Translations under genes and position numbers: made by a program
Assembly (NCBI GenBank): GCA_963810095.1
Contig: CAWEMM010000006.1
Span: forward strand, 1,419,353 to 1,483,352
Length of the DNA: 64,000 nucleotides
DNA from: an uncultured Chloroflexia bacterium
GTDB lineage: Bacteria > Chloroflexota > Anaerolineae > CG2-30-64-16
Direction: 5' to 3'
In this document: one piece after another, positions 43-58,476 of the stretch
How positions within the stretch are numbered: position 1 is the first letter of the stretch
How the letters are laid out: each line of letters opens with the position of its first letter
Notes under the pieces: model-generated
What the model was told of the DNA's origin: nothing
The model's database searches: none
What the model saw: only the letters and a program-made list of their open reading frames with translations

Positions 43-1416
43 ATGATGCACCAACCTACGCGCGACCCCCGGCCGCGTAAGTCCGATCCCACGCTCTTGC
101 TGGCGTTCCTGCTGCCTGTTTTCGCCTGGGCCCCGCTGACCTACCCCGGCTATTTTGTGTTCCGCAGCGGCTTCCTCCCCATCTTCAACCTGGCCGACCG
201 GCTCGCGCAATTGGGCAATTTCGCCTGGTTGCCCGCCATCGGGACGGGCTACCACCTGCTGAGCGGGGACGGCGGACTGCCCTACCTGCTGGCGGCGGTG
301 CCGGGCGCGTTGGGCGCGAGCCCGGCGAACGCCGTGAAGCTGCTCTTCGGGCTGGCGTTCGTGGCAGGCAGCGTGGGAGCTTATGCATGGACCCGGCGGC
401 TGCTGCCCGACGCATGGGCTGCGCTCGTCGCCGCCGCGGCGTACGTGTTCAGTCCGATCTGGCTGCCCCTCGTGTACGTGCAGGGGGCCCTTGCCGAGGC
501 GGTTTTGCTCGCCCTGCTGCCGTGGGTGTTGTGGGCGGCGGATTGGGCCGCCGAGGGCCAGCGAGCACGCGTCCTGATTCTCGCGCTGCTTGCAGCGGCG
601 TGCTTGTGGACGCAAAGCGCACTGGCATTGGCGTTCCTGGTCACCGTGTTCGTCTATTTGCTCGTCCTGCTCGCTGCCCGACAGATTGCGCGGCAGGGGT
701 TGGTGGCAGCTGCAAGCGGCCTGCTGCTGGGCCTGCTGCTCGGTGCGGTGGGGTGGCTGCCCGTCCTGATTCAACACGGACTGGGTAGGGCCGAGCCATT
801 CGAAGGCTGGCAGTGGGCGGTGCTCCTGGCGCCGTGGGTCGGGCTCCTGGCCGGCTGGGTTGCGCTGAGGCTCGTCGCGATGCTGCCCCCGGATGCGCCG
901 GGCGTGCGCGGCGCTGCTGCCGAGCGGGCGTCTGCGGAGCGCCACAGCCTGTTCGCCGCCCTGATCGGACTCCTGCTGTTGAGCATGGCCGGCAACCTGC
1001 AGCCTGTCGCGGGCGCTGGCCCGGTCGCGACTGCGCCGCTCGCCGTTTTCGGCGCGAACGAGATCGCGCTGTTGAGCGTCGAAACGGAAGGGACGCCCGG
1101 ACCCGGCGGGACCGTCGCGCTCGACGTTGAGTGGCAGGCGCTGAAGCCGCTGGATCGCGATTACACCGTCTTCTTTCATGTGCTCGCCGCGGACGATCAG
1201 CGATACGGGCAGTTGGACACGATGCCGCAGGCGGGCAAGCTCCCCACGTCGCAGTGGCAGCCGGGCGAGGTGATCCGCGACCGTTACCAGGTGGAAATGG
1301 ACCCGAAAGCGCCCATCCGCAGCGATTACAGCTACTGGCTCGGCTGGTACCTGGGTGAGACGGGGAACGCCTGCCCGCGGTGCAGGCGGGCTCGACCGGC
1401 GATAAATTCGTGGTGA
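43..1416 (+). CDS. polytopic membrane protein, paralog-like of the PTPS-related / GT-C-type membrane proteins downstream
   Basis: 457-aa ORF with multiple hydrophobic segments; N-terminal YPGYF motif resembles QPGYF/APGYF of the two downstream paralogs; C-terminal soluble region. Confidence 0.5.
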   Translation: MMHQPTRDPRPRKSDPTLLLAFLLPVFAWAPLTYPGYFVFRSGFLPIFNLADRLAQLGNFAWLPAIGTGYHLLSGDGGLPYLLAAVPGALGASPANAVKLLFGLAFVAGSVGAYAWTRRLLPDAWAALVAAAAYVFSPIWLPLVYVQGALAEAVLLALLPWVLWAADWAAEGQRARVLILALLAAACLWTQSALALAFLVTVFVYLLVLLAARQIARQGLVAAASGLLLGLLLGAVGWLPVLIQHGLGRAEPFEGWQWAVLLAPWVGLLAGWVALRLVAMLPPDAPGVRGAAAERASAERHSLFAALIGLLLLSMAGNLQPVAGAGPVATAPLAVFGANEIALLSVETEGTPGPGGTVALDVEWQALKPLDRDYTVFFHVLAADDQRYGQLDTMPQAGKLPTSQWQPGEVIRDRYQVEMDPKAPIRSDYSYWLGWYLGETGNACPRCRRARPAINSW

Positions 1417-1430
1417 AACCGTGATAGGCT

Positions 1431-3364
1431 ATGGTCCCGATGAGCACTGATTCGATGGCCCGGGCCGGGCGGCGTGCGGAGTGGGTCTATGCGGGCCTCG
1501 TACTGCTGTTTGGCTTGGTCGTGATCGCGCCGCTGTTGCAGCCCGGTTACTTCTGGGGCGCGCACGACGCACGGCACGACGTCTACTTTATCCAGCAGTA
1601 CGGCCTCTCGTTCAAAGAAGGCATCCTCTGGCCGCGCTGGTCGCCCGACTGGACGTTCGGCTACGGCTATCCGTTCTTCACCATCTACGCGCCCTTGTCC
1701 ACTTTCGCGGGCGTGTTGTTCAACCAGGTGGCGGGCCTCGGATACGAGGCAAGCGTCAAGGCGGTGCTGGCGCTCTCGGTGCTCGGCTCCGGGCTGGCGA
1801 TGTACGGCTTCGTGCGCTCGTGGCTGGGCCGGCGTGCCGGGCTGGTCGCCGCAGTCGCCTATATGGCGGTGCCGTATCACCTCGTCAACCTGTTTGTGCG
1901 GGCGGCCCTGGCCGAGTCGGTGGCGCTCGCCTTCCTGCCGCTGGCCCTCTGGGCCTTCAGAGAGGCAGTCGTCCGCCCCCGAATCCGGTCCGTCGTCGCG
2001 GCGGGGTTGACGTTTGGCGCAATCATGTGGACCAGCAACCTCGTGGCGCTGGTCTTCACCCCCGGGTTGGCCGCGTACGTCCTCGTGCTGATCTTGCTGG
2101 AGGCGCGCGGGCGCCAGGCAGAAGGCCGGAGTTTTCTGCGCAGCCTGTGGACGCCCGACACGCTGCGCAGCGTCCTGGCGCCCGGGCTTGCGCTCGCGCT
2201 GGGGCTCGGCCTCAGCGCGGCCTTCTTCGTCCCCGCGCTGGTCGAGCAAGGGTCGTACATCAACAAGACGCAGTGGTTCGGCGATTACTACAATCCCGAG
2301 CAGCACTTTGTCTACTTCAACCAGTTGTTCGATCCGCGTTGGGGCTTCGGCATCAGCCAGGCCGGACCGGACGATGCCGCACAGGGCAGCCTGAGCTACC
2401 AGTTGGGCGCGGCCGCGACGTTGTTCTCGATTATCGCGCTGGCGCTGAGCGGGCGCTTTCGGCCGCGCGTGCGGGCCGAGCTGCGCTTCTGGGGCCTCTG
2501 GCTGGTCGTTGCGGTCTTCCTGATGCTGCCCGTTTCGGTGCTGGCCTGGCGCTACGTGCCCATCGTCCCGTACGCGCAGTTCCCATGGCGCTACCTGATG
2601 CTGGCGATCCTCCCCCTGAGCATCCTGCCGGGCGCACTGATTGCGCTGCCCGGGGCTGCCGACCGGCGTCCTTCGACTGCGCTCCCTTCGGTCGCTCCGC
2701 TCAGGATGCCGGAGGGTGCGGGTGGCGCGCTGGGGGCGTCTTCCCCGCCTTCGTGTTGAGCCTTGTGCTGCTGCTCTCCAGCGCGCCCTACCTCCAGGTT
2801 GAGATTCGCGAGCCGACGGCCGAGCAAGGCCCGGTGTCGATGGCCGCCCTGATGCGCTTCCAGCGCACGAGCGACGAGATGACCGGAGTCACCGCCTGGG
2901 TGGACCCGGCCCAGCGGCCCATTTGGTCGACGATGGCCGACCTGTGGGTGCAGGGGCAGGCAGTCACCAGCCGGGTGGACTACTCGCAGGTGCCGCAGAA
3001 CGAGACGCTGGCGATCAACACGGAAGACGTGGGGACCGCCCACGAACAGATCTTCTTCTATGCCAAGGACCCCGGCAAGTCGATCACGTTCAATCGCTTC
3101 TGGTATCCCGGCTGGACGGCGTGGCTGCTGGATGGGAAGAACGGCCGGCCGGTGCGCAAGTTGGATTTGCAGCGTGAGGACGGGCCGCTTGCACGCATCG
3201 TGGTGCCCATCCCCCAGGGTGAGGGCTACATTTTGCTGCGCTTTGAGGATACACCACTGCGGCGGGTGTCCAAGCTGGTGACGCTGGCATTCGTAATTGG
3301 CCTGTTGGCAATACTGGCGGTCGCGTACGTGCTGAGGCGCCGCCGGTCAGGGAGGAGTGCATGA
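1431..3364 (+). CDS. 6-pyruvoyl-tetrahydropterin-synthase-related (PTPS-related) membrane protein, putative GT-C glycosyltransferase; apparent frameshift near 2650-2760
   Basis: Frame-0 ORF 1431..2759 carries QPGYFWGAHDARHDVYF and a GYGYPFF motif; C-terminal 200 aa continue in another frame (ORF 1481..3364 tail) and align with C-terminus of intact paralog 13038..14936 (FNRFWYPGW vs YYFPGWRATVDG). Confidence 0.6.
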
Positions 3365-3933
3365 TCTCAGATAATTTGTGGACCGGTCCCAACCTGCGTC
3401 TGACCGGCCTGGAGCGATTCGATGCCCGGGCCTTCTCCATGTGGCACAACGATGCGGGCTTTTTGCGGCTGCTCGATGCGGAATATGCGCGCCCCCGCAG
3501 CGAGGACGAGTGCGTCAAGTGGTTCGAGGATTGGCAGCGAGACGCGAAGATGATTGCCTTTGCCGTGCGCCCGCTGGCCGCCGACGACCTGGTTGGCGTC
3601 GTGATGCTGGAAAGCATCCTCTTCCAGCACGGGGTCGCATGGTTGGGCATGGGCTTTGGCAATCGCGAGCAGTGGGGCAAGGGGTACGGCCGCGAAGCGA
3701 TGTCGCTCATCCTCCGGTATGCCTTCAGCGAGCTGAATTTCCACCGGGTGCAAGCCAGCGTGTTCGAATACAACACGCTTTCCATCGGGATGTGCGAGCG
3801 GGCGGGGTTCCGGCGTGAGGGTGTGTTTCGAGAGTTCCTGCTGCGCGACGGCCGGCGCTACGACATGTACCTTTACGGCGTATTACGTGCAGAGTGGGCG
3901 GCCCTGAACGGCGGAGGAGAAGACATTGGCTGA
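3361..3933 (+). CDS. GNAT family N-acetyltransferase (RimJ/RimL-like)
   Basis: 190 aa; acetyl-CoA binding-like motif QWGKGYGREAM; ATGA overlap with upstream gene. Confidence 0.7.
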   Translation: MISDNLWTGPNLRLTGLERFDARAFSMWHNDAGFLRLLDAEYARPRSEDECVKWFEDWQRDAKMIAFAVRPLAADDLVGVVMLESILFQHGVAWLGMGFGNREQWGKGYGREAMSLILRYAFSELNFHRVQASVFEYNTLSIGMCERAGFRREGVFREFLLRDGRRYDMYLYGVLRAEWAALNGGGEDIG

Positions 3934-4738
3934 CGAACGGCCGTTGATCCTGTTGACCAACGACGACGGGATTGCTTCGCCCGGGTTGCTGGCGGCAGCG
4001 GAGGCGGTGTGCGACCTGGGCGAACTGCTAATTGTCGCGCCCGCCACCCAACAGACAGGGATGGGTCGCGGCACGCCGCCGATCCTAAACGGGGCGCTGA
4101 CGGTCGAGACGCTGCGGGTCGGGTGCGAGGACGTCCGTGTGTATGCATTGAACGGCTCGCCCGCGCAGACGGTCGTGATTGCGGTGCTTGGCATCGCGGA
4201 GCGGCGGCCGGCGCTGGTGGTCTCAGGCATCAACCACGGCGAGAACCTGGGCACGGCGGTGACCGGGTCGGGCACGGTTGGGGCGGCGCTGCAGGCGGCC
4301 GAAATGGGGATTCCGGGCTTGGCCGTATCGCTCGAGGTCGAGAAGGTCTACCACTACAACCACGCCGAAGACTTGCACTGGAGCGCGGCCGCGCACTTTA
4401 CGCGCTATTTTGCACAGCGCATGCTGGCCCAGACCATGCCGTTCGACGTCGACGTGCTCAAGGTGGACGTGCCGGCCGAGGCGACTGCCGAGACGCCCTG
4501 GCGTATCACAAGACAGGCGCGGCAGTCGTATTACAAGGTCTATCCGCCAAAGATGCGTCTGGCGCCCGGGCCGCTGGCAGAGCTCGACTATGGGATCGAG
4601 ATCGATTGGGATGACCTGCCGCAGGACACGGACGTCTACGTCTTTGCGCGCGAGCGGGTGGTGTCGGTGACGCCGTTGAGCCAGGATCTGACGTCACGTA
4701 CGGACGTTGCCGGCCTGGAGCGCCTGCTGCGGGGCTAG
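3926..4738 (+). CDS. surE: 5'/3'-nucleotidase SurE
   Basis: LLTNDDGI and SGINHGEN motifs typical of SurE; 270 aa. Confidence 0.85.
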   Translation: MADERPLILLTNDDGIASPGLLAAAEAVCDLGELLIVAPATQQTGMGRGTPPILNGALTVETLRVGCEDVRVYALNGSPAQTVVIAVLGIAERRPALVVSGINHGENLGTAVTGSGTVGAALQAAEMGIPGLAVSLEVEKVYHYNHAEDLHWSAAAHFTRYFAQRMLAQTMPFDVDVLKVDVPAEATAETPWRITRQARQSYYKVYPPKMRLAPGPLAELDYGIEIDWDDLPQDTDVYVFARERVVSVTPLSQDLTSRTDVAGLERLLRG

Positions 4739-4780
4739 TGTTTGGTGGGCGACCGGCCAGAGCATGACGGGGCAAATGGT

Positions 4781-5100
4781 GATGTTTGTTGGGGGCCGTC
4801 TGGCCCCCAACGCCCCCGACGGGGGGCTGCGCCCCCTCGTCCCCCAAAGGTTAAGGGGACGCGTGGCTTCCGCCAATTGGCCCATTTGAGCGTCCACATG
4901 GCGGGGCCAGACGGAAGCGGCTTGCGGGAAACCGGCATTTTGTGGAAGCACGGTTCTGATGCCGACTGCCGTGAGCGAGTCCGGCTGCTGCCCGCTGTCA
5001 ACACGGCCGGGGGCGTTGACCTTGGGGGTTTCGGGGGCAAGGCCCCCGAGGCGGGGGCGGCGGGGCAAGCCTGCCCCCGCCAAGACAAGATGTAGCAAGG
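4781..5100. repeat. dispersed GC-rich hairpin repeat element (REP/MITE-like), copy A
   Basis: Palindromes TTGGGGGCCGTCTGGCCCCCAA, GGGGCTGCGCCCC, GGGGGCAAGGCCCCC; same ordered motifs recur at 14950-15130, 42889-43287 and 58385-58476/61603-61745. Confidence 0.65.
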
Positions 5101-5135
5101 GCGGCGGGGCAAGCCGGCCACAACAGTGAGGTTAA

Positions 5136-6818
5136 TTGACAATGTCGAAACGTCTGCTTGCATTATTCCTGATTCTTCTAGTCAGCCTGGTCCTGGCTGC
5201 GTGCGGCGGGCCGGCCACCCAGCCGCTGAGCTACCGCCCCGCGCCGTGGCAGAGCGGGGAGGTCAGCCGGTACGACCTGGTGGACCGCGGCGGCGCCACC
5301 GTTGGCACGGCCGAGTGGACGTGGCAGCGCGCCGGCGATCAGTGGCGCCAAGGCTACACCGTGACCGTCAACGGCGTGCCAGACACGGGCGAGGTCGTGC
5401 TCGACAACAGCTTGAAGTCGTTGAGCTCGTGGCGCGAGGTGGGCGGCAAGCGCTTCGATACCACGTACGGCGCGAAGACCATCGAGGTCAAGACGACGGC
5501 CGCGGACGGCACGGTCACGACGAAGAGCCTGCCCGCACCGGCCGACGCAATCGACAACGACGTCTCGCTGCAGATTCAGCGGGCAATGCCGCTGGCGGCG
5601 GGCTATGCGACCCGCTACACCGACATTATCCCGACCACGGGCGGCGCGGCGCCCATCGTTCTGAGCGTCACCGGCGCCGAAACGATCACGGTTCCCGCGG
5701 GCACGTTCCCGACGTGGAAGGTCAAGATGGCGGTGGGGTCGACCGCGCACGAGGCGTGGTACGCGCAGCAAGCGCCCTACGCGATGGTGAAATACCTCAA
5801 CTCGGGCTCGGGTGCGCAGTTCGTGCTGACCGGCCTGGCAGGTGCCGCATCTGCGACGGCGTCACAGCCGGCGGCCACCCCGGTTCCGGGCGCGGCTGCA
5901 GTTGCTGGCGAACCGGGGGCCATGGCGCCCATCAACTGGCTCTACCTCGCGCTTGTCGTGTTCATCCAATTGCCCTTCCTGCTTGGCTTGCCGATCGTCT
6001 TGGGCTGGTGGATCAAGCGGCGGTATGGCATCGGCTGGGGGGTGTTCGGGTGGGGCGCACTCTCGTTCATCCTGTCGCAGGTCGTCCATATCCCGCTCAA
6101 CATGGCGCTGGGCCTGATCGGCGCGCCGCCCCGGGGCGTGGCCCTGGCGTCCCCCTTCGTGCTCGGCCTGGTCGCCGGCCTGAGCGCGGCGGTGTGCGAG
6201 GAAGGTATGCGGCTGCTCGTGATCACCGTCTTCGCTAAGAAGATTCGCGGCTGGCGCCCCAGTTTGCAGTTCGGCGCGGGGCACGGCGGCGCGGAGAGCA
6301 TCATTCTCGGCCTGCTGGTGGCCGTGAATCTGATCGGCATCCTGGCCTCGCGCAACCTCGGCGCGATTGGACAAGTGCTGCCCCCCGAGGCAGCCGCACA
6401 ACTGCAGGCCGCGCAGGCCGCATTCTGGGGCCAGAGCCCCTGGATTCCATTCGTCAGCGTGATCGAGCGCATTTCGGCTCTCGCCTTGCAGGTGTCGCTG
6501 GCCGTGCTCGTAGTGGCTTCCGTTACGCGGCGCCGGCCGCTCTACTTCGTCGCCGCGCTTGCGCTGCACACCGTGGTCGATGGTTGGACGATCTGGGCGC
6601 AGCCGCTCGGTGTGGCTGCGATCGAAGCCGGGGTGGCGCTGGCGGGACTCCTGGCCCTGTGGATTATCTGGCGGCTGCGTGAGCAACCCGCTGCCCTCCA
6701 ACCCGTATTAACAGGTGAAGCGGGCAGCAGCCCGGTTCCGAACGCAGCCGACCTGTCCGAGCAGGCGCTTTCACCTGATGAGCTGGCCCGGCGGGCCGAG
6801 CGGTCGCGGTACGAGTAA
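5136..6818 (+). CDS. lipoprotein-domain / YhfC-family intramembrane metalloprotease-like fusion protein
   Basis: N-terminal lipobox (LVLAAC); C-terminal polytopic region with EEGMR and GAGHGGAE motifs characteristic of YhfC family (recalled from family knowledge). Confidence 0.65.
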   Translation: MTMSKRLLALFLILLVSLVLAACGGPATQPLSYRPAPWQSGEVSRYDLVDRGGATVGTAEWTWQRAGDQWRQGYTVTVNGVPDTGEVVLDNSLKSLSSWREVGGKRFDTTYGAKTIEVKTTAADGTVTTKSLPAPADAIDNDVSLQIQRAMPLAAGYATRYTDIIPTTGGAAPIVLSVTGAETITVPAGTFPTWKVKMAVGSTAHEAWYAQQAPYAMVKYLNSGSGAQFVLTGLAGAASATASQPAATPVPGAAAVAGEPGAMAPINWLYLALVVFIQLPFLLGLPIVLGWWIKRRYGIGWGVFGWGALSFILSQVVHIPLNMALGLIGAPPRGVALASPFVLGLVAGLSAAVCEEGMRLLVITVFAKKIRGWRPSLQFGAGHGGAESIILGLLVAVNLIGILASRNLGAIGQVLPPEAAAQLQAAQAAFWGQSPWIPFVSVIERISALALQVSLAVLVVASVTRRRPLYFVAALALHTVVDGWTIWAQPLGVAAIEAGVALAGLLALWIIWRLREQPAALQPVLTGEAGSSPVPNAADLSEQALSPDELARRAERSRYE

Positions 6819-6829
6819 GCGAGGATTCG

Positions 6830-7798
6830 ATGATTCGCACAGAGGCATTATCAAAACACTTCGAGAGCGACGGCCGAACAATCAAGGCCGTCGACGGGCT
6901 GGACCTCCAGGTGCAGGAAGGGGAGGTGTTCGGCTTTCTCGGCCCCAATGGCGCGGGAAAGACGACCAGCGTCCGCCTGCTGACCAGCCTGATTGCGCCA
7001 ACGGGCGGCCGCGCCTGGGTCAACGGCCTGCAGTTGGGCGAGGACGACGCGAAGATCCGGGCCAGCGTCGGCATTCTGACCGAGTCGCCCGGGCTGTACG
7101 AGCGGCTGAGCGCGTTCTATAACCTGCAGATTTTCGGCGAGCTGTACGGGTGCAAGGACCCGAAGGGGCAGGCCGAGAAGTACCTGCGGCTGCTGGAGTT
7201 GTGGGACCGCAAGGACACCGAGGCCGGAACGTTCTCGAAAGGCATGAAGCAGAAGCTGGCCATCGCGCGGGCGTTGCTCCACGAGCCGCCGGTCGTGTTT
7301 CTTGACGAGCCGACCTCGGCGCTTGACCCTGAGTCGGCCAAGACCGTGCGCGAGTTTATCGAGACGCTGCGCGGACAAGGGCGCACCATCTTCCTCTGCA
7401 CCCATAACCTGGACGAGGCGGAGCGACTCTGCGACCGGATCGGCGTGTTCAAGCAGCGGTTGATCGCCGTGGACACGCCCGACGCGCTACGCAAGAAACT
7501 CTTTGGCCGCCAGACCGTGATCCACCTGGCGCCGGGCAGCGAAGCGGGGCGGCTGGCGGGGGCTGTCGAGTGCTTGCCGGGCATCAAGCACGTGGAGACG
7601 CTGCCTGCGGCCGACGGCGAATCGCCCAAGCTGGTGATCAGCCTGAATGAGCCGGCCCAGCAGAACCCTGCCATCGTGCGCGCCCTTATCGAGCAGGGTG
7701 CGGCCATCCAGTTCGTGAATGAGCTTCGGCATTCGTTGGAAGATGTGTACCTGAGCCTGATCCACAGCGGTCCGACCGGAGAAGGGGGCGCCAAGTGA
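6830..7798 (+). CDS. ABC transporter ATP-binding protein
   Basis: Walker A GPNGAGKTT, signature SKGMKQKLAIARAL, Walker B VVFLDEPTSALD. Confidence 0.85.
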   Translation: MIRTEALSKHFESDGRTIKAVDGLDLQVQEGEVFGFLGPNGAGKTTSVRLLTSLIAPTGGRAWVNGLQLGEDDAKIRASVGILTESPGLYERLSAFYNLQIFGELYGCKDPKGQAEKYLRLLELWDRKDTEAGTFSKGMKQKLAIARALLHEPPVVFLDEPTSALDPESAKTVREFIETLRGQGRTIFLCTHNLDEAERLCDRIGVFKQRLIAVDTPDALRKKLFGRQTVIHLAPGSEAGRLAGAVECLPGIKHVETLPAADGESPKLVISLNEPAQQNPAIVRALIEQGAAIQFVNELRHSLEDVYLSLIHSGPTGEGGAK

Positions 7799-8586
7799 GC
7801 GCGATAGGCACAGTGGTTAAGAAAGAGTGGATGGAGGTCCGCCGGAACAAGCTGGTGCTGTCCGTCGTGCTTTTCATCCCACTGCTGATGACGGCGATTC
7901 CGCTCGTGATGATGGGGATTATGGGCCGGGTCGGCGCGAGTGCGAGCGATATGGAAGAAATGAGCATGATGCTCAAGAACCCCATCTTCCAGGGCATGAG
8001 CCCCAACGAAGCCATCCAGGCAACGTTGGCGTCGAACTTCCTTGTGCTCTTCCTGATGATGCCGCTAATGGTGCCGGTGACGATCGCTGCCTACAGCATC
8101 GTGGGCGAGAAGGTTACTCGCTCGCTCGAACCGCTGCTTGCGACGCCCATCAGCACCACCCGGTTGCTGCTGGCAAAGGGGATTGCCGCGGCCGTGCCGG
8201 GCATCCTGGGCGCGTGGATCGCCTACGTGGTTTTCCTGATAGGCGCTCGCTTCCTGGCCGTCAGCGACCAGGTGTTTGCGATCTTTCTGAACCCGATGTG
8301 GTTGGTCGCTATGCTGGTGCTGGCGCCCCTGCTGACGATCATGGCGGTCAACGTTGGCATTATCGTCAGCAGCCGCACGTCAGACCCGCGCGCCGCAGAG
8401 CAGCTCGGCAGCCTGATCATCCTGCCGCTGATGGTGCTGTTTCTCGGCCCGCTGGCCGGCTTCATCCAGCTCAACGTGACCACCTTCATGGTTGCGGCGC
8501 TGATTGCCCTGGCGGCCGACGTCGTACTGGTGTATCTGGGCGTGAAGCTGTTCCAGCGTGAGACGATCCTGACCCGCTGGAAGTAG
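7795..8586 (+). CDS. ABC-2 family transporter permease
   Basis: 263-aa polytopic membrane protein; start overlaps ATPase stop (GTGA); operon position. Confidence 0.75.
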   Translation: MSAIGTVVKKEWMEVRRNKLVLSVVLFIPLLMTAIPLVMMGIMGRVGASASDMEEMSMMLKNPIFQGMSPNEAIQATLASNFLVLFLMMPLMVPVTIAAYSIVGEKVTRSLEPLLATPISTTRLLLAKGIAAAVPGILGAWIAYVVFLIGARFLAVSDQVFAIFLNPMWLVAMLVLAPLLTIMAVNVGIIVSSRTSDPRAAEQLGSLIILPLMVLFLGPLAGFIQLNVTTFMVAALIALAADVVLVYLGVKLFQRETILTRWK

Positions 8587-8744
8587 GGGCATCGCGCACC
8601 CGGCCGCGCATCTCGGCAGTCGATTGAAACACCAAGAACCGAAGAACCAAAGGTGCACGAAGCCCAAGAGGCTTTGCGGACCTTAGGCTTCTTCGGTTCT
8701 TCGTGTGAACGGCCGTCCGCACAGGGGTCTTGCCCGTGTTGACG

Positions 8745-8790
8745 ATCTCGGCGAGGGAACTTATGCTTGAGTTCCCTCGTTTTGTTGGCG
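8745..8790 (+). terminator. putative rho-independent terminator of the ABC operon
   Basis: GGGAACT-TATGCT-AGTTCCC stem followed by TCGTTTTGTTGG U-rich tract. Confidence 0.4.
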
Positions 8791-8821
8791 GGGTTTTTTC
8801 CCATTCAGAGGAGGCGGCGTA

Positions 8822-10987
8822 ATGAGCCGTGGCCGTCGGACTTATCTCTACAGCGTGGCCTTGTTTGGCCTCGTGGCTTCGCTGGTCAGCCTGGTATCCT
8901 TCTTGTGGCGGTTTTTCGCCGCCCGCGCCGTGGACCTGCTCGGGGCGTCGCCCCTGACCGGGGTGCTGGACTCGCCCGCGCTGCCCTGGCTGATACTCTT
9001 CCTGCTGACCCTCGCCACGTGGCTCTATCACATCATCGCCGCAAACCGGGCGGCCCGCCCGCTGACCATGGCCGGGGCCGCCGAACGTGCCGCGCCCGAA
9101 CGCAAGATGTACCTCTACATGGGGCGGCTGGCTGTTGTGGCGGTCCTGGCCGGACAGGCCTGGCTGCTGATCCGCCACGTGGCCGTTGCATTTCTCGACA
9201 ACGGCGTTGCCGGCTTACGGGCGGGCAGCGGGTGGACCTTGGCGCTGGCCGCGGGGATCGTCGTCGCCCTGGGTTACTACGTCTACCTGCGCGTCGAGGC
9301 GAGCCGCGATGGTGACTTGGGTCAGGAGCGGGGCAAGGCGGTGCTTTGGCGGAGGGCGTACACGTACGCGGCCGCGCTGGCCGGCGCGCTGCTGACATTC
9401 CTCGGCGGCGGCGAGTTGATCCGTGCGGGGATCCGGGTCTTGATGACGCCGCTGAGCCGCGACGTGACGTGGCATGGTCCTGCCGCGGCTGCGCTTGGGG
9501 CGCTCGTCGTCGGCTTGCCGCTAAGTGCAGCGGCCTGGGGCGCGGCGAACCGGGCCGCGACCATGAACGCGCCCTCGGAGACGAACGCGCTCAGCCGGGT
9601 GCTGCTGCGCTACGGCGGCGTGCTGGTGGCGACGCTCGTCACCCTCGTGGCGTTGGGCTACCTGGTCGAGCAGATCATCCTGACTGCCATCAGCCGGCCG
9701 GTCGGAAATGCAGGCCGGGCCTTATTCGGCATGTTCGACTGGACCTGGGCGCTGGCCTACCTGCCCGTGGCCGCGCTGATGTGGATCAGTTTTTCGGGCG
9801 GCGCGCGGACGGATGCGCTCTGGGGTGGTGAGAAGCCGCGCACGGGCGGCATCCGCCGGGTTGTCCGCTACCTGCTGACGGCGATCTCGCTGGTCGCCTT
9901 CTGGTACGGCTTGACGGAGTTCACGCGGCTGATTCTCCAGGTGTTCCTGGGCGCAGACTCGGCCACGGGCAGCGCGGCCGAATGGGTCCAGCGCTTCGCG
10001 ACCTCGGCGGCGTTCCTTCTGATTGGCGCGCCGGCGTGGTGGGGTCACTGGTGGTCGCAGCAGATGCGCGTGCGTTCGGAGAACTACGAGAGCCGCGGCA
10101 CAGCCGTGAGCGAACGGGGCTCGCGGGTGCGGCGTGTCTACCTGTGGGGGGTTCTGCTGGTGGCTGCCGTGGTGGTCGTCGCCGCGTTTGGGTTCGCCGT
10201 GGTGCTGGCGTTGAACTGGCGGTCGGCCGGCAACCTCGGCGGGGTGCGGGCTGCGGTGGCGGGCGCCGTGGCCGCGGCAGTTGTTGCCGCGTTCTGGGCA
10301 CTCGTCCACGGCCTGGTGTTGAGGAGTGACATGCGTTATCTGTCGCGGGGCCAAGCCGCCGGCGCTGCGGAGCCCGTCATCGTCGCACCGCTCGTGCCGG
10401 CGGCTGCGGCTGCTCCGGCCGGCATCGGGCCTGTCGCAGCGGCCGCGGCCGTCGCCGGTGTAAGCCGGGCGGCGCCGGGCGGGACGCAGCCCCAGCCCCT
10501 TGCCGAGAGCCGCGAGTATCGCCGGGAAGACCTGGCGCCGCTGGCCGCGCAGGCGGGTTTGGACGTCGTGGCAGGAGGGGCAACACCCGCCCTGGTCATC
10601 CTGGACGGTGCCGATGGCGCGCTGGGCGCGCAGCTGACAGCAGCGCTTCGTTCCGCATTCCCGACCGCAGCGCTCTGGCCGGTGGGGTTGAACGAGGTGG
10701 CGCACATGGCTATGCTGGGCGCGCTGGGCCAGGAGCCGCCCGTCCTGCCCGACGATGCCTTCGACCGGGCCGCGGGCATCCTTGCGCCGTCGGACGTGCT
10801 GATCCCCGGTGCGTTGGATGGGCAGGTCACTGCCGAACTGGTCGAGGCGCTCGCGCGGACCACCGCCCGGATCATGCTGCTGCCCCCGCACGACGCCCGG
10901 CTGCGCTGGGTGGCCGCGCCGAATTGGCCGGTGGAGCGCTGGGTGGAAAACGCGGTGATCGAAGCGGGAAACGTGCTTGGGGCGTAA
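8822..10987 (+). CDS. hypothetical polytopic membrane protein with internally repeated TM modules and a C-terminal soluble domain
   Basis: 721 aa; repeated units beginning R..YLY / MYLYMG / YTYAAAL / VRYLL / VYLWGVL each followed by hydrophobic helices; RBS GAGGAGG upstream. Confidence 0.6.
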   Translation: MSRGRRTYLYSVALFGLVASLVSLVSFLWRFFAARAVDLLGASPLTGVLDSPALPWLILFLLTLATWLYHIIAANRAARPLTMAGAAERAAPERKMYLYMGRLAVVAVLAGQAWLLIRHVAVAFLDNGVAGLRAGSGWTLALAAGIVVALGYYVYLRVEASRDGDLGQERGKAVLWRRAYTYAAALAGALLTFLGGGELIRAGIRVLMTPLSRDVTWHGPAAAALGALVVGLPLSAAAWGAANRAATMNAPSETNALSRVLLRYGGVLVATLVTLVALGYLVEQIILTAISRPVGNAGRALFGMFDWTWALAYLPVAALMWISFSGGARTDALWGGEKPRTGGIRRVVRYLLTAISLVAFWYGLTEFTRLILQVFLGADSATGSAAEWVQRFATSAAFLLIGAPAWWGHWWSQQMRVRSENYESRGTAVSERGSRVRRVYLWGVLLVAAVVVVAAFGFAVVLALNWRSAGNLGGVRAAVAGAVAAAVVAAFWALVHGLVLRSDMRYLSRGQAAGAAEPVIVAPLVPAAAAAPAGIGPVAAAAAVAGVSRAAPGGTQPQPLAESREYRREDLAPLAAQAGLDVVAGGATPALVILDGADGALGAQLTAALRSAFPTAALWPVGLNEVAHMAMLGALGQEPPVLPDDAFDRAAGILAPSDVLIPGALDGQVTAELVEALARTTARIMLLPPHDARLRWVAAPNWPVERWVENAVIEAGNVLGA

Positions 10988-12475: not shown

Positions 12476-13063
12476 GTGGCTACTCAAGTTCGCCTGTTCG
12501 TCAGCGCGGGACCGGCTGAAGAGGGGGCGAGGGAACACCTGGGCCGGGCGCTTGCGGAGCTGCCCATCAGCGTGGGCTGGGTGATCAAGCGCACACCCGA
12601 CGTCGACTCCGTGGCCGAATGCCACCTGTTCGCGGTGCTACTTGGCCGCGATATCGCCGCGCCGGTGGGGCTCGAGCTATGGTGGGCGCGGCGCACGGAG
12701 AAGCCGGTGCTGGCCTATACGGCCGAAGGGCTGCGCACGCCGGCCTGCCAGGTGTTCTTCCAGGACAACTTCTACCTCGACTGGCACCCATTTCCCGATG
12801 CGGTGAGTTTGCGGCGCCTGTTCCTGCTCGACATCTGCCGCTTTCTCCTCGCCCACGACGAGCGGTATGGCGTGACCGTGGTCGAGACGGAGGCGCTGCG
12901 CGGCTTCATGGCGCGATTGGAAAAGCCCGCAGCGGTCGTCCCCGGCCGCGCTCCGGCACGGGAAGGCCCCCTGGCCAGGCCCCAAGGCGCAGGGGGCGGG
13001 GGCGTGATCCTCGCGCCGGGCAAGGACACCCCGCGCGGTGCACGCATCATTGGCGAGGAGTGA
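12476..13063 (+). CDS. hypothetical protein
   Basis: 195-aa ORF filling the intergenic gap, GC3-rich codon usage; no recognisable motif. Confidence 0.4.
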   Translation: MATQVRLFVSAGPAEEGAREHLGRALAELPISVGWVIKRTPDVDSVAECHLFAVLLGRDIAAPVGLELWWARRTEKPVLAYTAEGLRTPACQVFFQDNFYLDWHPFPDAVSLRRLFLLDICRFLLAHDERYGVTVVETEALRGFMARLEKPAAVVPGRAPAREGPLARPQGAGGGGVILAPGKDTPRGARIIGEE

Positions 13064-14936
13064 GCCCGCGCAGCCCATGAACCTGTCTCCCAGCGTCCCT
13101 GCCCCGCGCCCTGCGCCCCTCGCACGAGTTACAGCCTGGCTGCGTCGCGATGTGCACCTGTGGTTGGCCCTACTCCTGGTCGTCCCTGCAATGCTGCCGC
13201 TCTTCGCGCCGGGCTACTTCGTGAAAGCCCACGACGCGCGGCACAGCATCTTCTTCCTGGTCGAGTTCGACCGCAGTTTCAGCGAGGGCGCCTTGTGGCC
13301 CGTGTGGGGGCCCGACCATGCCGTCGGATTCGGCTATCCGACGTTCTTGTTGTACGCACCGCTCGCGTTTTACGTGGGCGAGGCATTCCACCTGCTGGGT
13401 CTTGGCTTCGCCGCGGCGACGAAGGCGACCTGGGCGCTCGGCTTCCTGCTGGGCGCGGCGGGCACCTACCGCCTTAGCCGGCGCTGGTTCACCCCCGCAG
13501 TTGCGCTGGTTGCGAGCCTCGCTTTCACGTACGCGCCGTATCACCTGGGGCAGATCTACGTGCGCGCCGCCCTTGCCGAGTTCATGGCGCTTGCCTGGTT
13601 GCCCTGGGCCGTGCTGGCCTTCTTACGACTGTGGGACGAGCCGGGACCGCGCCGGGCGGCGCTGGCCGGGCTGGCGTTGGCGGCGTTGTTGCTGTTTCAC
13701 ACAGTCTCGACGTTGACCTTCGCGCCGCTGATCGGCGCGCTGCTGGCGCTGCTCCTCGTGCGGGACGCGGTGAAGGCGCGCTCGCTCGTGCGGGCGGTGC
13801 GCTCGCCGCAGGCCGGCTGGACGTTCGTGGCGCTGGTCGTGGCGGGCCTGCTCTCCTGCATCTTCTTCGTGCCCATGCTCCTGGAGCGCGGCGGCGTGGC
13901 ACAGTGGCAGTGGGTCAAGGAGACGTACAGCTACCGGCTGCACTTCGTCTATCCGGGTCAATTCCTGCTTCCCACCTGGGGCTATGGCTACTCCGTGGCA
14001 GGCCCGAACGATGGCATGAGTTTTCAGGTCGGCATCCCGATCTTCCTGCTGGCGGTGCTGGGCGCCGGCGTGGCGCTGCTGAGGCGCGCGCGTCCTGAGC
14101 CGACCGCCTTCCAGCTGGAAGGGGTGGAGGCGCCGGTCGCGCCTCCGGCGGGCGGGCGATTAATGGTCCTGTTCCTCACGGCCGTCACGCTGGTGACCCT
14201 GTTCCTGATGACGCCGGCGGCGCAGGGCATCTGGGATGTGCTGCCCCTGGTGGAGTTAATCCAATTTCCGTGGCGTTTGCTGGCGGTGGTCGTGTTTGCG
14301 CTGGCGCTGCTCGCAGGTTGGGGCGCATGGCTGCTCAACTCGCGTGCCTTGCGCCGGGGACCGCAAGGCGTCAGCCCCTTCGTCTACGTTGCCGGGTTGG
14401 CGCTCATCGTGAGCAGCCTGCCGTTCACGCGGCCCGAGATCGTCCCGCTCAGGCCGCAGGATGAGAGCCCGCTCGCGGTGCTCGACTTCGAGATGGCCTT
14501 CCCCGACATGCGCGGGTTGACCGCGTGGGCCGAGCGGCCGCCCGCGGACGCCGACTCGCCGCTGATTGCCCAGTACCTGGCCGGGCAGCCGCTGCAAAAG
14601 GCGGCGATTGCGTCGGGCTCGGGCACGATTCTCGAGCAGTCGTCCGGTGCGCTGTCGGCGCGGGCGAGCGTGCGCGCGACCGGCCCGTTGTCTCTGCGCT
14701 TCTACACGTATTACTTCCCCGGCTGGCGTGCGACGGTCGACGGGCGGCCTGCTGAGTTGCGGGCTGAGGGCCCGAACGGGCTGATGACGGTGGACGTGCC
14801 GGCCGGCGAGCACGAAGTGCGGGTTACGTTTGGGCAGACCCCGGCGAGGATGGCCGGCCGGTTGCTGGCCGCCCTGGGTGCGCTTCTATGCGTGTTTTTG
14901 CTGGTAAAGGGCAAGCGCAAGGCAATTATCGGCTGA
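13038..14936 (+). CDS. PTPS-related membrane protein, putative GT-C glycosyltransferase (intact paralog)
   Basis: 632 aa; APGYFVKAHDARHSIFF and GFGYPTF motifs, many TM segments, conserved C-terminal YYFPGWRATVDG region. Confidence 0.75.
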   Translation: MHASLARSEPAQPMNLSPSVPAPRPAPLARVTAWLRRDVHLWLALLLVVPAMLPLFAPGYFVKAHDARHSIFFLVEFDRSFSEGALWPVWGPDHAVGFGYPTFLLYAPLAFYVGEAFHLLGLGFAAATKATWALGFLLGAAGTYRLSRRWFTPAVALVASLAFTYAPYHLGQIYVRAALAEFMALAWLPWAVLAFLRLWDEPGPRRAALAGLALAALLLFHTVSTLTFAPLIGALLALLLVRDAVKARSLVRAVRSPQAGWTFVALVVAGLLSCIFFVPMLLERGGVAQWQWVKETYSYRLHFVYPGQFLLPTWGYGYSVAGPNDGMSFQVGIPIFLLAVLGAGVALLRRARPEPTAFQLEGVEAPVAPPAGGRLMVLFLTAVTLVTLFLMTPAAQGIWDVLPLVELIQFPWRLLAVVVFALALLAGWGAWLLNSRALRRGPQGVSPFVYVAGLALIVSSLPFTRPEIVPLRPQDESPLAVLDFEMAFPDMRGLTAWAERPPADADSPLIAQYLAGQPLQKAAIASGSGTILEQSSGALSARASVRATGPLSLRFYTYYFPGWRATVDGRPAELRAEGPNGLMTVDVPAGEHEVRVTFGQTPARMAGRLLAALGALLCVFLLVKGKRKAIIG

Positions 14937-14949
14937 CGCCTGATGACTA

Positions 14950-15130
14950 TTTTGCGGGGGCGCTCTTGCCCCCGCCGCCCCGACGCGAGTGGCTGCCCAC
15001 GACCGACTCATTGGCGGGGAGCGCTCTCGCCCCCGACGCGAGGGGTTGCCACGACCGACTCATTGGCGGGAGCGCTCTTGCCCCCGCCGCCCCCGACCAG
15101 GGGCTGCGCCCCTTGGAACCCCAAAGGCAG
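14950..15130. repeat. dispersed GC-rich hairpin repeat element, copy B with internal ~50-bp tandem duplication
   Basis: GGGGCTGCGCCCCTTGGAACCCCAAAGG and GGGGGCGCTCTTGCCCCCGCCGCCCC motifs; duplicated unit CCACGACCGACTCATTGGCGGG. Confidence 0.6.
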
Positions 15131-42888: not shown

Positions 42889-43287
42889 GGGGGCTTTCTT
42901 TTGTTGGGGGCCGCCGGCCCCATCCATTGGATATGTCTTCTGTTGGGGGCCGCCGGCCCCCAACGCCCCGGCCGAGGGGCTGCGCCCCCTCGACCCCCAA
43001 ACTTACTCGGGGAACAGTTCATTTGTGGAGCAACGGCTGGGGCCCACGGACCGCTGCGGGGCTGCCAGTTGCGGGCTTGCACGAGGCCGGCATTTTAGGA
43101 AATGCGCGAGCAATAGCCTCCTCGGGGACATGCAGACGCCGATCTCTTTGGCGATAACTACGCCAGGAGCGTAGCAATTGGGGGTCTCGGGGGCAACGCC
43201 CCCGAGGCGGGGTTGGCAGGGGCCGGCCGGCCCCTGCCAAAAGACCGGAACCTCGAAGCGGGGTGGACGGAGGCCGCCGGCCCCTGC
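42889..43287. repeat. dispersed GC-rich hairpin repeat element, copy C (longest)
   Basis: Two TTGGGGGCCGCCGGCCCC modules, GGGGCTGCGCCCCCTCGACCCCCAAA, GGGGGCAACGCCCCCGAGGCGGGG, GGCAGGGGCCGGCCGGCCCCTGCC palindromes; colinear with copy A. Confidence 0.65.
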
Positions 43288-58386: not shown

Positions 58387-58476
58387 GCCTTTGTTTGTTG
58401 GGGCCCGGATGACCCTCAACACCTGGTTGCATGGGCCGCCTTGCTGTTGGGGGCCGTCGGGCCCCCAACGCCCCCG
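58385..58476. repeat. dispersed GC-rich hairpin repeat element, copy D left half (split by IS insertion)
   Basis: CTGTTGGGGGCCGTCGGGCCCCCAACGCCCCCG matches copy A 4788-4824; right half resumes at 61603. Confidence 0.6.

What the first reader, a model, noticed from the sequence alone, without database searches (positions are those of the whole stretch)
5136..8586. Lipoprotein-YhfC fusion heading an ABC-2 transporter operon
A 560-aa protein combines a lipobox N-terminal beta-rich domain (~230 aa) with a YhfC-type polytopic putative metalloprotease domain (EEGMR, GHGGAE motifs). It is followed with overlapping/adjacent starts by an ABC ATPase and an ABC-2 permease. YhfC-ABC pairings are known, but the fused extracytoplasmic lipoprotein domain is unusual.
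Basis: partly seen in the sequence, partly recalled or inferred. Interest (0 to 1): 0.5.

Follow-up and report, generated by a model that had tools for sequence, protein, structure and literature searches.

The report
Lipoprotein barrel–YhfC protease with ABC-2 pump
A membrane enzyme of the little-studied YhfC family carries a lipid-anchored outer "cup" domain and sits in one operon with an ABC-2 export pump; the arrangement is real and recurs in Anaerolineae (Chloroflexota), and gene fusions elsewhere suggest that enzyme and pump work together, but what they act on is unknown.

Summary
One ORF (most likely ATG 5142 to 6818, 558 aa) encodes four parts:
- a lipobox signal peptide (Cys21);
- a DUF3108 beta-barrel;
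- a disordered Ala/Pro linker;
- a 7-TM YhfC domain with every family motif intact.

It is followed by a DrrA-like ABC ATPase (6830-7798) and a 4-nt-overlapping ABC-2 permease (7795-8586).

The fusion is not an artefact or a one-off. More than 70 protein clusters, and about 31 clusters at 50% identity, carry it, all in Chloroflexota/Anaerolineae MAGs. The exact protein is already in public records, without a name.

New points from this work:
- SurE-YhfC-ABC-ABC2-DUF5671 synteny is conserved in about 20 loci.
- Inside this clade the barrel was lost at least four times. One relic keeps the lipobox.
- Apparent "split" genes are frameshifts.
- Two unrelated proteins fuse YhfC directly to the ABC ATPase, each followed by an ABC-2 permease. 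This is Rosetta-stone evidence for a YhfC-pump complex.
- A conserved cytoplasmic tail (LSxEELARRAExSRYE) marks the ABC-linked clade.
- The barrel is structurally closest to EipB, a LolB-like hydrophobic cup.

The substrate and the chemistry remain unknown. I rate it a new variant of a known kind, of moderate interest.

The parts
5142..6818 (+). Fusion gene (558 aa): lipoprotein signal + DUF3108 barrel + linker + YhfC 7-TM domain + cytoplasmic tail. An alternative TTG start lies at 5136.
5142..5204 (+). Signal peptide with lipobox L-A-A-C. Cys21 is the predicted lipidated N-terminus after signal peptidase II cleavage.
   Evidence: Read from the sequence. Cys21 is invariant in alignment A1. Relic L026 keeps this signal without the barrel.
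5229..5840 (+). DUF3108 / YmcC-like beta-barrel ('beta-spiral cup'), aa 30-233, extracytoplasmic
5847..5912 (+). Ala/Pro-rich disordered linker, aa 236-257, variable in length among homologues
   Evidence: pLDDT below 50; alignment columns 266-330
5937..6674 (+). YhfC 7-TM domain, aa 266-511, N-out/C-in. Motifs: Q313/H316/N320, E353-E354-xx-R357 (nt 6198-6212), H381-xxx-E385 (nt 6279-6296 for G380-E385), E442-R443, H476-xxx-D480 (nt 6567-6581).
6729..6815 (+). Conserved cytoplasmic C-terminal tail, aa 530-558 (…LSPDELARRAERSRYE). A helix is predicted at aa 545-557. It is a candidate docking element for the ABC ATPase or the DUF5671 protein.
   Evidence: Alignment. Presence tracks the ABC-linked clade. 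The tail HMM hits only this ORF in the window. The docking role is inferred.
6830..7798 (+). ABC ATPase, DrrA-like/ABCA-like nucleotide-binding subunit with a DrrA1-3_C-like C-terminal domain
   Evidence: Pfam PF00005 at 103 bits. TIGR01188 at 259.6 bits, below its cut-off of 312. The closest solved relatives are ABCA3/ABCA7/ABCA4/ABCA1 NBDs.
7795..8586 (+). ABC-2 family permease (263 aa). Its GTG start overlaps the ATPase stop codon.
   Evidence: Pfam PF12698/PF12679/PF12730/PF01061. Homologues are invariably 263 aa and 67-86% identical.
8629..8793 (+). Two hairpins after the permease: 18-nt arms at 8629-8706, and 8752-8779 followed by a T-run. This is the likely 3' end of the three-gene transcript in this genome.
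   Evidence: function inferred
8822..10987 (+). Conserved downstream neighbour: polytopic DUF5671 (x4) protein with a cytoplasmic DUF3842 domain. It may be a fourth component.
   Evidence: Pfam. It was detected downstream of the permease in 19 of the ABC-linked loci and not in L026 despite about 4.5 kb of sequence beyond its permease; L009 and L018 have little sequence left. It directly abuts or overlaps the permease gene in several loci.
3926..4738 (+). Conserved upstream neighbour SurE (5'/3'-nucleotidase family). It is probably not part of the system.
   Evidence: Pfam PF01975; synteny

Best explanation
The three genes encode one envelope machine. It is an ABC-2 (type V, DrrAB/ABCA-like) exporter whose accessory membrane subunit is a catalytically competent YhfC-family (CPBP/APH-1-fold) glutamic-type intramembrane hydrolase.

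In this lineage YhfC carries an N-terminal beta-barrel cup (DUF3108) that is lipid-anchored and extracytoplasmic. This cup fold has a largely hydrophobic lumen in its solved relative EipB.

Proposed working order:
1. The YhfC domain cuts a membrane-embedded, hydrophobic or lipid-modified peptide or protein segment inside the bilayer.
2. The ABC-2 pump uses ATP to move the substrate or product out of the cytoplasmic membrane.
3. The tethered cup binds that hydrophobic molecule, or the outer part of the substrate, at the outer face of the membrane.

The conserved cytoplasmic tail of YhfC would dock on the ATPase.

Shown here: the domain identities, the topology, intact catalytic motifs, operon structure and synteny, and the existence of YhfC-ATPase fusion proteins.

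Inferred: physical complex formation in this organism, the order of events, the nature of the substrate, and the cup's ligand.

My confidence in the YhfC-pump partnership alone is about 0.65. For the full cut-pump-catch scheme it is about 0.25. The 0.4 given as confidence is for the statement as a whole.
For: Domains and motifs:
- Pfam scores are far above threshold.
- The catalytic-type residues are invariant or nearly invariant in 92 representatives.
- The AF2 model has mean pLDDT 84.7, with both domains above 90.

Folds:
- EipB is a periplasmic cup with a 66% hydrophobic lumen and is needed for envelope integrity (bioRxiv 10.1101/551135).

Topology:
- Seven TM helices obey the positive-inside rule, N-out and C-in.
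- Two kinds of fusion corroborate this independently. A lipoprotein domain sits at the N-terminus, and in P0145 and P0212 a cytoplasmic ABC ATPase sits at the C-terminus.

Coupling to the pump:
- The starts are translationally coupled.
- YhfC-ABC-ABC2 synteny holds in about 20 Anaerolineae loci.
- Two divergent YhfC-ATPase single-chain fusions are each followed by an overlapping ABC-2 permease.
- The ATPase and permease are the best conserved genes of the block, at 75% and 71% median identity.
- The C-terminal tail occurs in every complete, non-frameshifted member of the ABC-linked main clade. It is absent from ten tail-less relatives that have no ABC neighbour.

Precedents:
- NCBIfam curates an ABC-2 permease/CPBP protease fusion family, NF041647.
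- In the skf cluster the putative protease gene skfC sits with the export/resistance genes skfE/skfF (PMC8172795).
- Loss of the Ecs ABC transporter inhibits intramembrane proteolysis in B. subtilis (PMC2996298).
Against: - No substrate gene is identifiable, and nothing here shows proteolysis.
- The barrel was lost at least four times inside the ABC-linked clade, so it is dispensable for whatever the YhfC-pump pair does.
- DUF3108-YhfC fusions without the tail have no adjacent ABC genes (L015, L019, L021, P0080, P0091), so the barrel-YhfC unit also works without a linked pump.
- By position in the helices the E-E/H/H residues lie mid-membrane to inner leaflet. The cup may therefore not feed the active site directly.
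- AF2 gives no confident barrel-TM packing (pTM 0.59, disordered linker).
- CPBP-clan proteins can be non-proteolytic. APH-1 is a scaffold, and LnsB acts in lipoprotein N-acylation (PMC7387801).
- The link between the tail and ABC adjacency rests essentially on one clade, so it is a single evolutionary event rather than independent replication.
Confidence: 0.4

Rival explanations
1. Sensor-protease reading. The DUF3108 barrel is an extracytoplasmic ligand sensor that gates a PrsW-like signalling cleavage by the YhfC domain (regulated proteolysis of a membrane regulator). The ABC-2 pump is only a co-transcribed neighbour or downstream effector, not a physical partner.
For: The same DUF3108 subtype occurs three times in tandem as the extracellular part of a Ser/Thr protein kinase (P0154), which is a typical sensor position. 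Fused barrel-YhfC proteins exist without any ABC neighbour. PrsW belongs to the same clan as CPBP and APH-1 (PMC6588880).
Against: No sigma/anti-sigma or other regulator gene is conserved next to the locus. The YhfC-ATPase single-chain fusions argue for a physical link to the pump. The barrel is repeatedly lost while the rest of the block stays intact.
Confidence: 0.2
2. Peptide-antibiotic (RiPP/bacteriocin) maturation or self-immunity module. It would resemble the CPBP/Abi proteases that sit with ABC-2 exporters in the skf and sag clusters.
For: The gene order protease-ATPase-permease resembles skfC/skfE/skfF (PMC8172795). The permease gives a weak hit to SagH-type permeases (NF038293, E 8.8e-5, far below cut-off).
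Against: There is no precursor peptide or modification enzyme gene nearby. The block lies in a stable chromosomal context (SurE upstream, DUF5671 downstream) across class-level diversity, and the pump is very highly conserved. This is the pattern of a core function, not of a variable immunity island.
Confidence: 0.1
3. The YhfC domain is not a protease here. It would be a scaffold or a lipid- or lipoprotein-tailoring subunit, as APH-1 is in gamma-secretase or LnsB in lipoprotein N-acylation, while the barrel and the pump handle lipids or lipoproteins.
For: The best structural matches are the non-catalytic APH-1B and TMEM147. LnsB is a CPBP relative that acts in acyl transfer (PMC7387801). B. 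subtilis yhfC belongs to the FapR lipid-synthesis regulon (PMC4525379, PMC3536700). The ATPase is closest to the ABCA lipid exporters. The barrel resembles LolA, LolB and EipB.
Confidence: 0.2
4. The fusion is an assembly or annotation artefact that joins two separate genes.
For: Some relatives are called as two genes (P0220-P0222, P0224).
Against: Those splits are frameshifts inside a colinear fused gene in long-read-style assemblies, where neighbouring genes are broken too. The continuous ORF recurs in more than 70 clusters from independent samples and in 31 clusters at 50% identity.
Confidence: 0.01

Closest known systems
YhfC family (Pfam PF10086; named after B. subtilis YhfC; NCBI name 'YhfC family glutamic-type intramembrane protease')
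   Same: The TM domain matches the family HMM at 134 bits and carries all family motifs. Close homologues already bear this NCBI name.
   Different: The typical member is a solo 260-320-aa protein. B. subtilis yhfC is a member of the FapR lipid-synthesis regulon (PMC4525379); that it lacks an ABC neighbour is my own recollection and was not checked here. The window protein adds a lipoprotein signal, a DUF3108 barrel and a conserved cytoplasmic tail, and it heads an ABC-2 operon. [quoted passage not shown]
CPBP/Abi (type II CAAX, Rce1-like) glutamic intramembrane proteases paired or fused with ABC-2 transporters (skfC-skfEF; sagE-sagFGHI; NCBIfam NF041647 permease/CPBP fusion)
   Same: A clan-related intramembrane hydrolase sits next to an ATPase and an ABC-2 permease. 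In other lineages the hydrolase is fused to a transporter subunit.
   Different: Here the hydrolase belongs to the YhfC family, not CPBP proper. The Rosetta-stone fusion is to the ATPase rather than the permease. There is no peptide precursor or biosynthetic genes. The chromosomal context is that of a core function. That SkfC and SagE belong to CPBP is from my own knowledge and was not tested here.
APH-1 (gamma-secretase subunit) and TMEM147
   Different: They are eukaryotic, non-catalytic scaffolds. The window protein keeps the E-E-x-x-R/His/His set.
DUF3108 (BF2203, PDB 3FZX; BDI_3050, PDB 4FVS), DUF1849 EipB (PDB 6NTR), and YmcC (PDB 2IN5); more loosely LolA, LolB and RseB
   Same: The N-domain meets the DUF3108 HMM and superposes on these soluble beta-barrel cups. 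Like LolB and BDI_3050 it is a lipoprotein.
   Different: Those proteins are free-standing periplasmic proteins or lipoproteins of diderm bacteria. Here the cup is covalently joined to a polytopic enzyme in a Chloroflexota genome. No ligand is known for any DUF3108 protein.
EcsAB ABC transporter and the RasP intramembrane protease of B. subtilis
   Same: There is a functional dependence of intramembrane proteolysis on an ABC exporter (PMC2996298).
   Different: RasP is a site-2 metalloprotease, an unrelated fold. Those genes are unlinked, and no extracytoplasmic cup is involved.

Membership tests
YhfC family (PF10086) | Match to the family HMM above the curated gathering score | tested here: met
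   134.1 bits against a cut-off of 24.2; aa 284-487 cover profile positions 4-206 of 222
YhfC family (PF10086) | Conserved polar motifs in TM helices: E-E-x-x-R, G-x-G-H-G-x-x-E, E-R, H-x-x-x-D/N | tested here: met
   E353, E354, R357, H381, E385, E442, R443, H476 and D480 are present. The same positions are 95-100% conserved in 67 solo and 25 fused representatives, except that the second Glu is 80% conserved in the fused set.
YhfC family (PF10086) | CPBP/APH-1-type polytopic helical fold | tested here: met
YhfC family (PF10086) | Peptide-bond hydrolysis within the membrane | not testable with these tools
   No member has been assayed, as far as the searched literature shows.
DUF3108 (PF11306) | Match to the family HMM above the gathering score | tested here: met
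   53.3 bits against 26; aa 51-227 cover positions 6-204 of 209
DUF3108 (PF11306) | YmcC-like beta-barrel fold | tested here: met
Bacterial lipoprotein | N-terminal signal peptide ending in a lipobox [LVI][ASTVI][GAS]C | tested here: met
   K3-R4, a hydrophobic core, then L18-A19-A20-C21. Cys21 is invariant in 27 homologues.
Bacterial lipoprotein | Actual diacylglyceryl modification and signal peptidase II cleavage, with Lgt and LspA present in the genome | not tested
   Only a 64-kb window is available, and no biochemical data exist.
ABC-2 type exporter (ATPase + ABC-2 permease) | ABC ATPase with Walker A, signature and Walker B motifs, next to a 6-TM ABC-2 family permease | tested here: met
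   PF00005 at 103 bits. GPNGAGKTT, FSKGMKQKL and VVFLDEPTSALD are read in the translation. The permease matches PF12698, PF12679, PF12730 and PF01061.
DrrA daunorubicin-resistance ATPase subfamily (TIGR01188) | Score above the curated cut-off | tested here: not met
   259.6 bits against a cut-off of 312.45. It is DrrA-like, not a DrrA subfamily member.
RiPP/bacteriocin protease-exporter cluster (skf/sag type) | Linked precursor peptide and modification enzyme genes | tested here: not met
   The flanking genes are GNAT, SurE, DUF5671/DUF3842, an aminotransferase and GT-C-like membrane proteins. SagH equivalog: 21.5 bits against a cut-off of 450.
ABC permease/CPBP fusion family (NF041647) | Score above the curated cut-off | tested here: not met
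   15.9 bits against 435, and only the first 56 residues match.

The most novel reading that the evidence does not exclude
The YhfC enzyme is an integral subunit of an ABC-2 exporter. Together with its lipid-anchored beta-spiral cup it would form a previously undescribed 'cut-pump-catch' envelope pathway of Chloroflexota. In this reading an intramembrane hydrolase processes a lipidated or hydrophobic cargo, the pump extracts it from the cytoplasmic membrane, and a LolB/EipB-like cup receives it outside. That would make it a lipid or lipoprotein trafficking system unrelated to Lol or Mla, and it would give the first function for both the YhfC and DUF3108 families.
Probability: 0.12. Interest if true: 0.7.

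Novelty: new variant of a known kind. Interest (0 to 1): 0.35.

Why it matters
YhfC (PF10086) and DUF3108 (PF11306) are both widespread families without a known function. This locus, together with the fusion proteins found from it, gives testable handles.

- It points to a physical partner for YhfC, namely a DrrA-like ABC-2 pump.
- Two independent fusions fix the topology: N-terminus outside, C-terminus inside.
- It provides a candidate docking tail.
- It provides an optional extracytoplasmic hydrophobic cup.

If the partnership holds, intramembrane CPBP-clan hydrolases acting as subunits of ABC-2 exporters would be a general theme that extends beyond bacteriocin loci. For genome annotation, the result shows that 'split' DUF3108/YhfC gene calls in long-read MAGs are frameshift errors.

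Tried and rejected
- PDB sequence search with the whole protein gave nothing usable. The same was true for the permease and the DUF3842 region.
- The NCBIfam scan found no model for the fusion protein.
- The Rfam scan of 4500-9000 found no riboswitch or known RNA.
- The sigma-70 promoter scan found nothing upstream of the operon.
- The afdb50 fold library was unavailable.
- Pei et al. 2011 (PMC3155266), the paper that defined the clan, is not held.
- L018 and L020 seemed at first to carry an alternative N-terminal domain. I rejected this: the long ORF there is an Arg-rich out-of-frame read-through of the upstream gene in high-GC DNA.
- Closely related 'standalone' DUF3108 proteins (P0220-P0222, P0224) looked like evidence for a split gene. 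I rejected this because they are frameshifts.
- The homologue search with the permease found no permease-protease fusions among the 120 best hits.
- The window has no paralogue of either domain.
- I considered treating the tail/ABC co-occurrence as a statistical association. I rejected this because it reflects essentially one clade.
I therefore could not measure the depth of the active site or how hydrophobic the barrel lumen is.
Full report
**1. What is in the sequence**

The ORF list shows one long frame from 5136 (TTG) to 6818. A GAGG lies 10 nt upstream of the ATG at 5142 but only 4 nt from the TTG. The public gene call for this genome is exactly the 558-aa ATG product. I therefore take 5142-6818 as the gene.

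Pfam places DUF3108 (PF11306) on aa 51-227, at 53.3 bits against a cut-off of 26. It places YhfC (PF10086) on aa 284-487, at 134.1 bits against a cut-off of 24.2.

The N-terminus, MSKRLLALFLILLVSLVLAAC, has the positive n-region, hydrophobic core and L-A-A-C lipobox of a bacterial lipoprotein. Cys21 is invariant in 27 homologues.

The next gene (6830-7798) is an ABC ATPase of the DrrA-like group. It scores 259.6 bits against TIGR01188, below the subfamily cut-off. Its closest solved relatives are the nucleotide-binding domains of the ABCA lipid exporters.

The third gene (7795-8586) is an ABC-2 permease, and its GTG start overlaps the ATPase stop codon. Two hairpins, one followed by a T-run, come after the permease. 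One refinement is that the 'beta-rich domain' belongs to a named family.

**2. Structure and topology**

An AlphaFold2 model built on 27 homologues has a mean pLDDT of 84.7. It shows:
- an all-beta domain at aa 30-233, with pLDDT above 90;
- a disordered Ala/Pro linker at aa 236-257;
- seven TM helices at aa 266-511;
- a short C-terminal helix at aa 545-557.

Hydropathy and the positive-inside rule give an N-out/C-in topology. The positive clusters are KRR after TM1, KKIRGWR after TM3, TRRR after TM5 and RLRE after TM7.

EipB is a periplasmic cup with a mostly hydrophobic lumen and is needed for envelope integrity (bioRxiv 10.1101/551135). DUF3108 proteins have been described as having the YmcC fold (PMC4364669).

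The family's polar TM residues are all present: Q313, H316, N320, E353-E354-xx-R357, H381-xxx-E385, E442-R443 and H476-xxx-D480. They are 95-100% conserved in 67 solo and 25 fused representatives, except that the second Glu is 80% conserved in the fused set. The enzyme looks catalytically equipped.

By position along the helices, the Glu/His residues lie mid-membrane to inner leaflet. H316, N320, E442 and R443 lie in the outer half.

**3. Distribution of the fusion**

A search of 5.8 billion proteins returned 73 clusters, and nearly all are annotated PF11306+PF10086. They come from Anaerolineae/Chloroflexota metagenome bins, and some are named 'YhfC family glutamic-type intramembrane protease'.

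A profile search of 1.84 billion representatives found 4,197 relatives. Among the best 150, I classified 31 as barrel+YhfC and about 111 as solo YhfC. The ranking favours fused proteins, because the profile contains both domains.

The fusion is thus a minority architecture of the family, but it is an old and diverse one in this phylum.

**4. Synteny and the fate of the barrel**

In 35 genome loci I mapped homologues of each window gene. About 20 loci share the order SurE - YhfC - ABC ATPase - ABC-2 permease - DUF5671/DUF3842 protein.

Within that clade eight loci have a YhfC of about 300 aa without the barrel: L018, L020, L022, L023, L024, L026, L027 and L030. In L026 the lipoprotein signal peptide is retained and joined directly to the linker. 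That is the signature of a domain deletion.

I built a bootstrapped neighbour-joining tree of the YhfC domain. The barrel-less forms fall at four separate positions:
- window + L018 + L020, 96% support;
- L003 + L014 + the L022-L027 group, 94%;
- L009 + L012 + L030, 96%;
- L008 + L013 + L026, 72%.

Monophyly of the barrel-less forms was recovered in 0 of 100 replicates. The barrel has therefore been lost at least four times. Where it is kept, it evolves no faster than the enzyme domain: median identity is 55% for the barrel against 50% for YhfC.

Gene calls that present the barrel as a separate gene (P0220-P0222, P0224; L025, L045, L046) are frameshifts of a colinear fused gene. In L025 and L045 neighbouring genes are broken too.

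Genuine free-standing DUF3108 lipoproteins of this subtype do exist, at 31-33% identity. They are not next to YhfC or ABC genes.

**5. Link between YhfC and the pump**

Two divergent proteins, P0145 and P0212, carry a YhfC domain joined by a short Pro/Ala linker to a DrrA-like ABC ATPase. Each is followed by an overlapping ABC-2 permease gene.

Their two halves are 34% and 35% identical to the window's YhfC domain and ATPase.

This is classical Rosetta-stone evidence that YhfC works in a complex with this type of transporter. It also confirms that the YhfC C-terminus is cytoplasmic.

In the window's clade the YhfC C-terminus carries a conserved tail, LSxEELARRAExSRYE. The tail is present in every complete, non-frameshifted member that has the ABC genes next door. 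It is missing from ten tail-less relatives that have no ABC neighbour. Two tail-less loci (L017, L035) do have ABC genes. Because the tail defines essentially one clade, I treat this as suggestive only.

The ATPase and permease are the most conserved genes of the block, at 75% and 71% median identity. The permease is always 263 aa long.

**6. Other uses of the two modules**

The same DUF3108 subtype occurs as tandem lipoproteins (P0090, P0104). It also occurs three times over as the extracellular part of a Ser/Thr kinase (P0154). YhfC can carry a different lipoprotein N-domain (P0136).

Next to the YhfC-ATPase fusion in L036 lies a beta-propeller-like lipoprotein.

An extracytoplasmic, membrane-tethered binding module next to YhfC therefore seems to be a recurring but exchangeable theme.

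**7. Interpretation**

The best-supported reading is a three-part envelope machine. Its parts are an ABC-2 exporter, a YhfC intramembrane hydrolase as accessory subunit, and in this lineage a lipid-anchored hydrophobic cup on the outside.

I propose a 'cut-pump-catch' order. Only the partnership itself has direct comparative support, and I put it at about 0.65. The full scheme I put at about 0.25.

The rival readings are:
- a sensor-gated signalling protease with an unrelated pump;
- a RiPP or immunity module;
- a non-proteolytic scaffold or lipid-tailoring role.

The non-proteolytic reading has some support:
- B. subtilis yhfC belongs to the FapR lipid-synthesis regulon (PMC4525379, PMC3536700).
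- LnsB shows that CPBP relatives can act in lipoprotein acylation (PMC7387801).

The RiPP reading is weakened by the lack of precursor or biosynthetic genes and by the core-like synteny. An artefactual fusion is excluded.

**8. Novelty**

The family and even this exact protein are in public databases, and homologues are machine-annotated as YhfC proteases. The literature I could search has 34 papers that mention YhfC and 5 that mention DUF3108. None of the titles, abstracts and passages I examined describes the barrel-YhfC fusion, the YhfC-ATPase fusions or the tail. A 2026 paper states that little is known about this protease family (PMC13096917).

I classify the finding as a new variant of a known kind: a CPBP-clan hydrolase paired with an ABC-2 exporter, here of the YhfC family with a DUF3108 lipoprotein module.

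I score interest at 0.35. The anatomy is clean and yields testable hypotheses for two orphan families. However, nothing here is very surprising to a specialist, and the function remains inferred.

Noticed in passing
window 1431-3364: A GT-C-like membrane protein gene (PTPS_related/PMT_2) is split over two reading frames. Its paralogue at 13038-14936 is a single 632-aa ORF. tblastn with that paralogue matches frame 3 for 1485-2633 and frame 2 for 2846-3280, and the first ORF stops at 2759. This is either a frameshift/pseudogene or a sequencing error near 2640-2760.
   Followed up: partly
window 4739-5141; also 42941-43001, 43178-43212, 58445-58476, 15088-15112: The 403-nt gap between SurE and the fusion gene is only about 4 to 190 nt (stop-to-stop ORF bounds) in most relatives. 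Here it is filled with GC-rich direct and inverted repeats. Two of its modules recur in the same order and with the same spacing of about 236 nt at 42941-43212 (90-94% identity). One module also recurs at 58445-58476. This is a dispersed intergenic repeat family of unknown nature.
   Followed up: partly
window 6729-6815 (aa 530-558 of the fusion protein): There is a strongly conserved cytoplasmic C-terminal motif, LSxEELARRAExSRYE, ending exactly at the C-terminus. It is shared by barrel-bearing and barrel-less YhfC proteins of the ABC-linked clade and is absent from other YhfC proteins.
   Followed up: partly
window 8822-10987: A 721-aa polytopic protein has four DUF5671 stretches and a C-terminal DUF3842 domain. 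It was detected directly downstream of the permease in 19 loci of the clade, often abutting the permease gene, and not in L026. Both domains are uncharacterised, and no solved relative was found.
   Followed up: partly
window 8629-8706: A long hairpin with 18-nt arms (94% complementary, 42-nt loop) lies in the permease-DUF5671 spacer. A second hairpin with a T-run follows at 8752-8793, and a sigma-70-like site lies at 8739-8767.
   Followed up: no
P0154 (representative protein, no locus): A 1058-aa Ser/Thr protein kinase has one TM segment and three tandem extracellular DUF3108 domains of the same subtype as the window's barrel. This is an uncharacterised sensor architecture.
   Followed up: partly
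L036 293-1933 (upstream of the YhfC-ATPase fusion P0145): A 546-aa predicted lipoprotein (lipobox A-M-A-C) has an acidic Gly/Glu/Asp-rich spacer and weak beta-propeller (SGL/NHL/Reg_prop) signals. It lies directly upstream of the YhfC-ATPase fusion gene and may be an exchangeable extracytoplasmic partner.
   Followed up: no
window 43-1416, 1431-3364, 13038-14936: Three paralogous GT-C-like membrane proteins (PF10131 PTPS_related, with weak PMT_2/YfhO hits) flank the locus. This suggests an envelope-glycosylation neighbourhood.
   Followed up: no
L025, L045, L046: In L025 and L045 several genes of this block are broken by frameshifts (DUF3108/YhfC, the ABC ATPase and permease in L025, DUF5671/DUF3842); in L046 only the fusion gene was checked. 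All three come from assemblies with long-read-style contig names. Public protein sets therefore contain spurious 'standalone DUF3108' and 'short YhfC' entries.
   Followed up: yes
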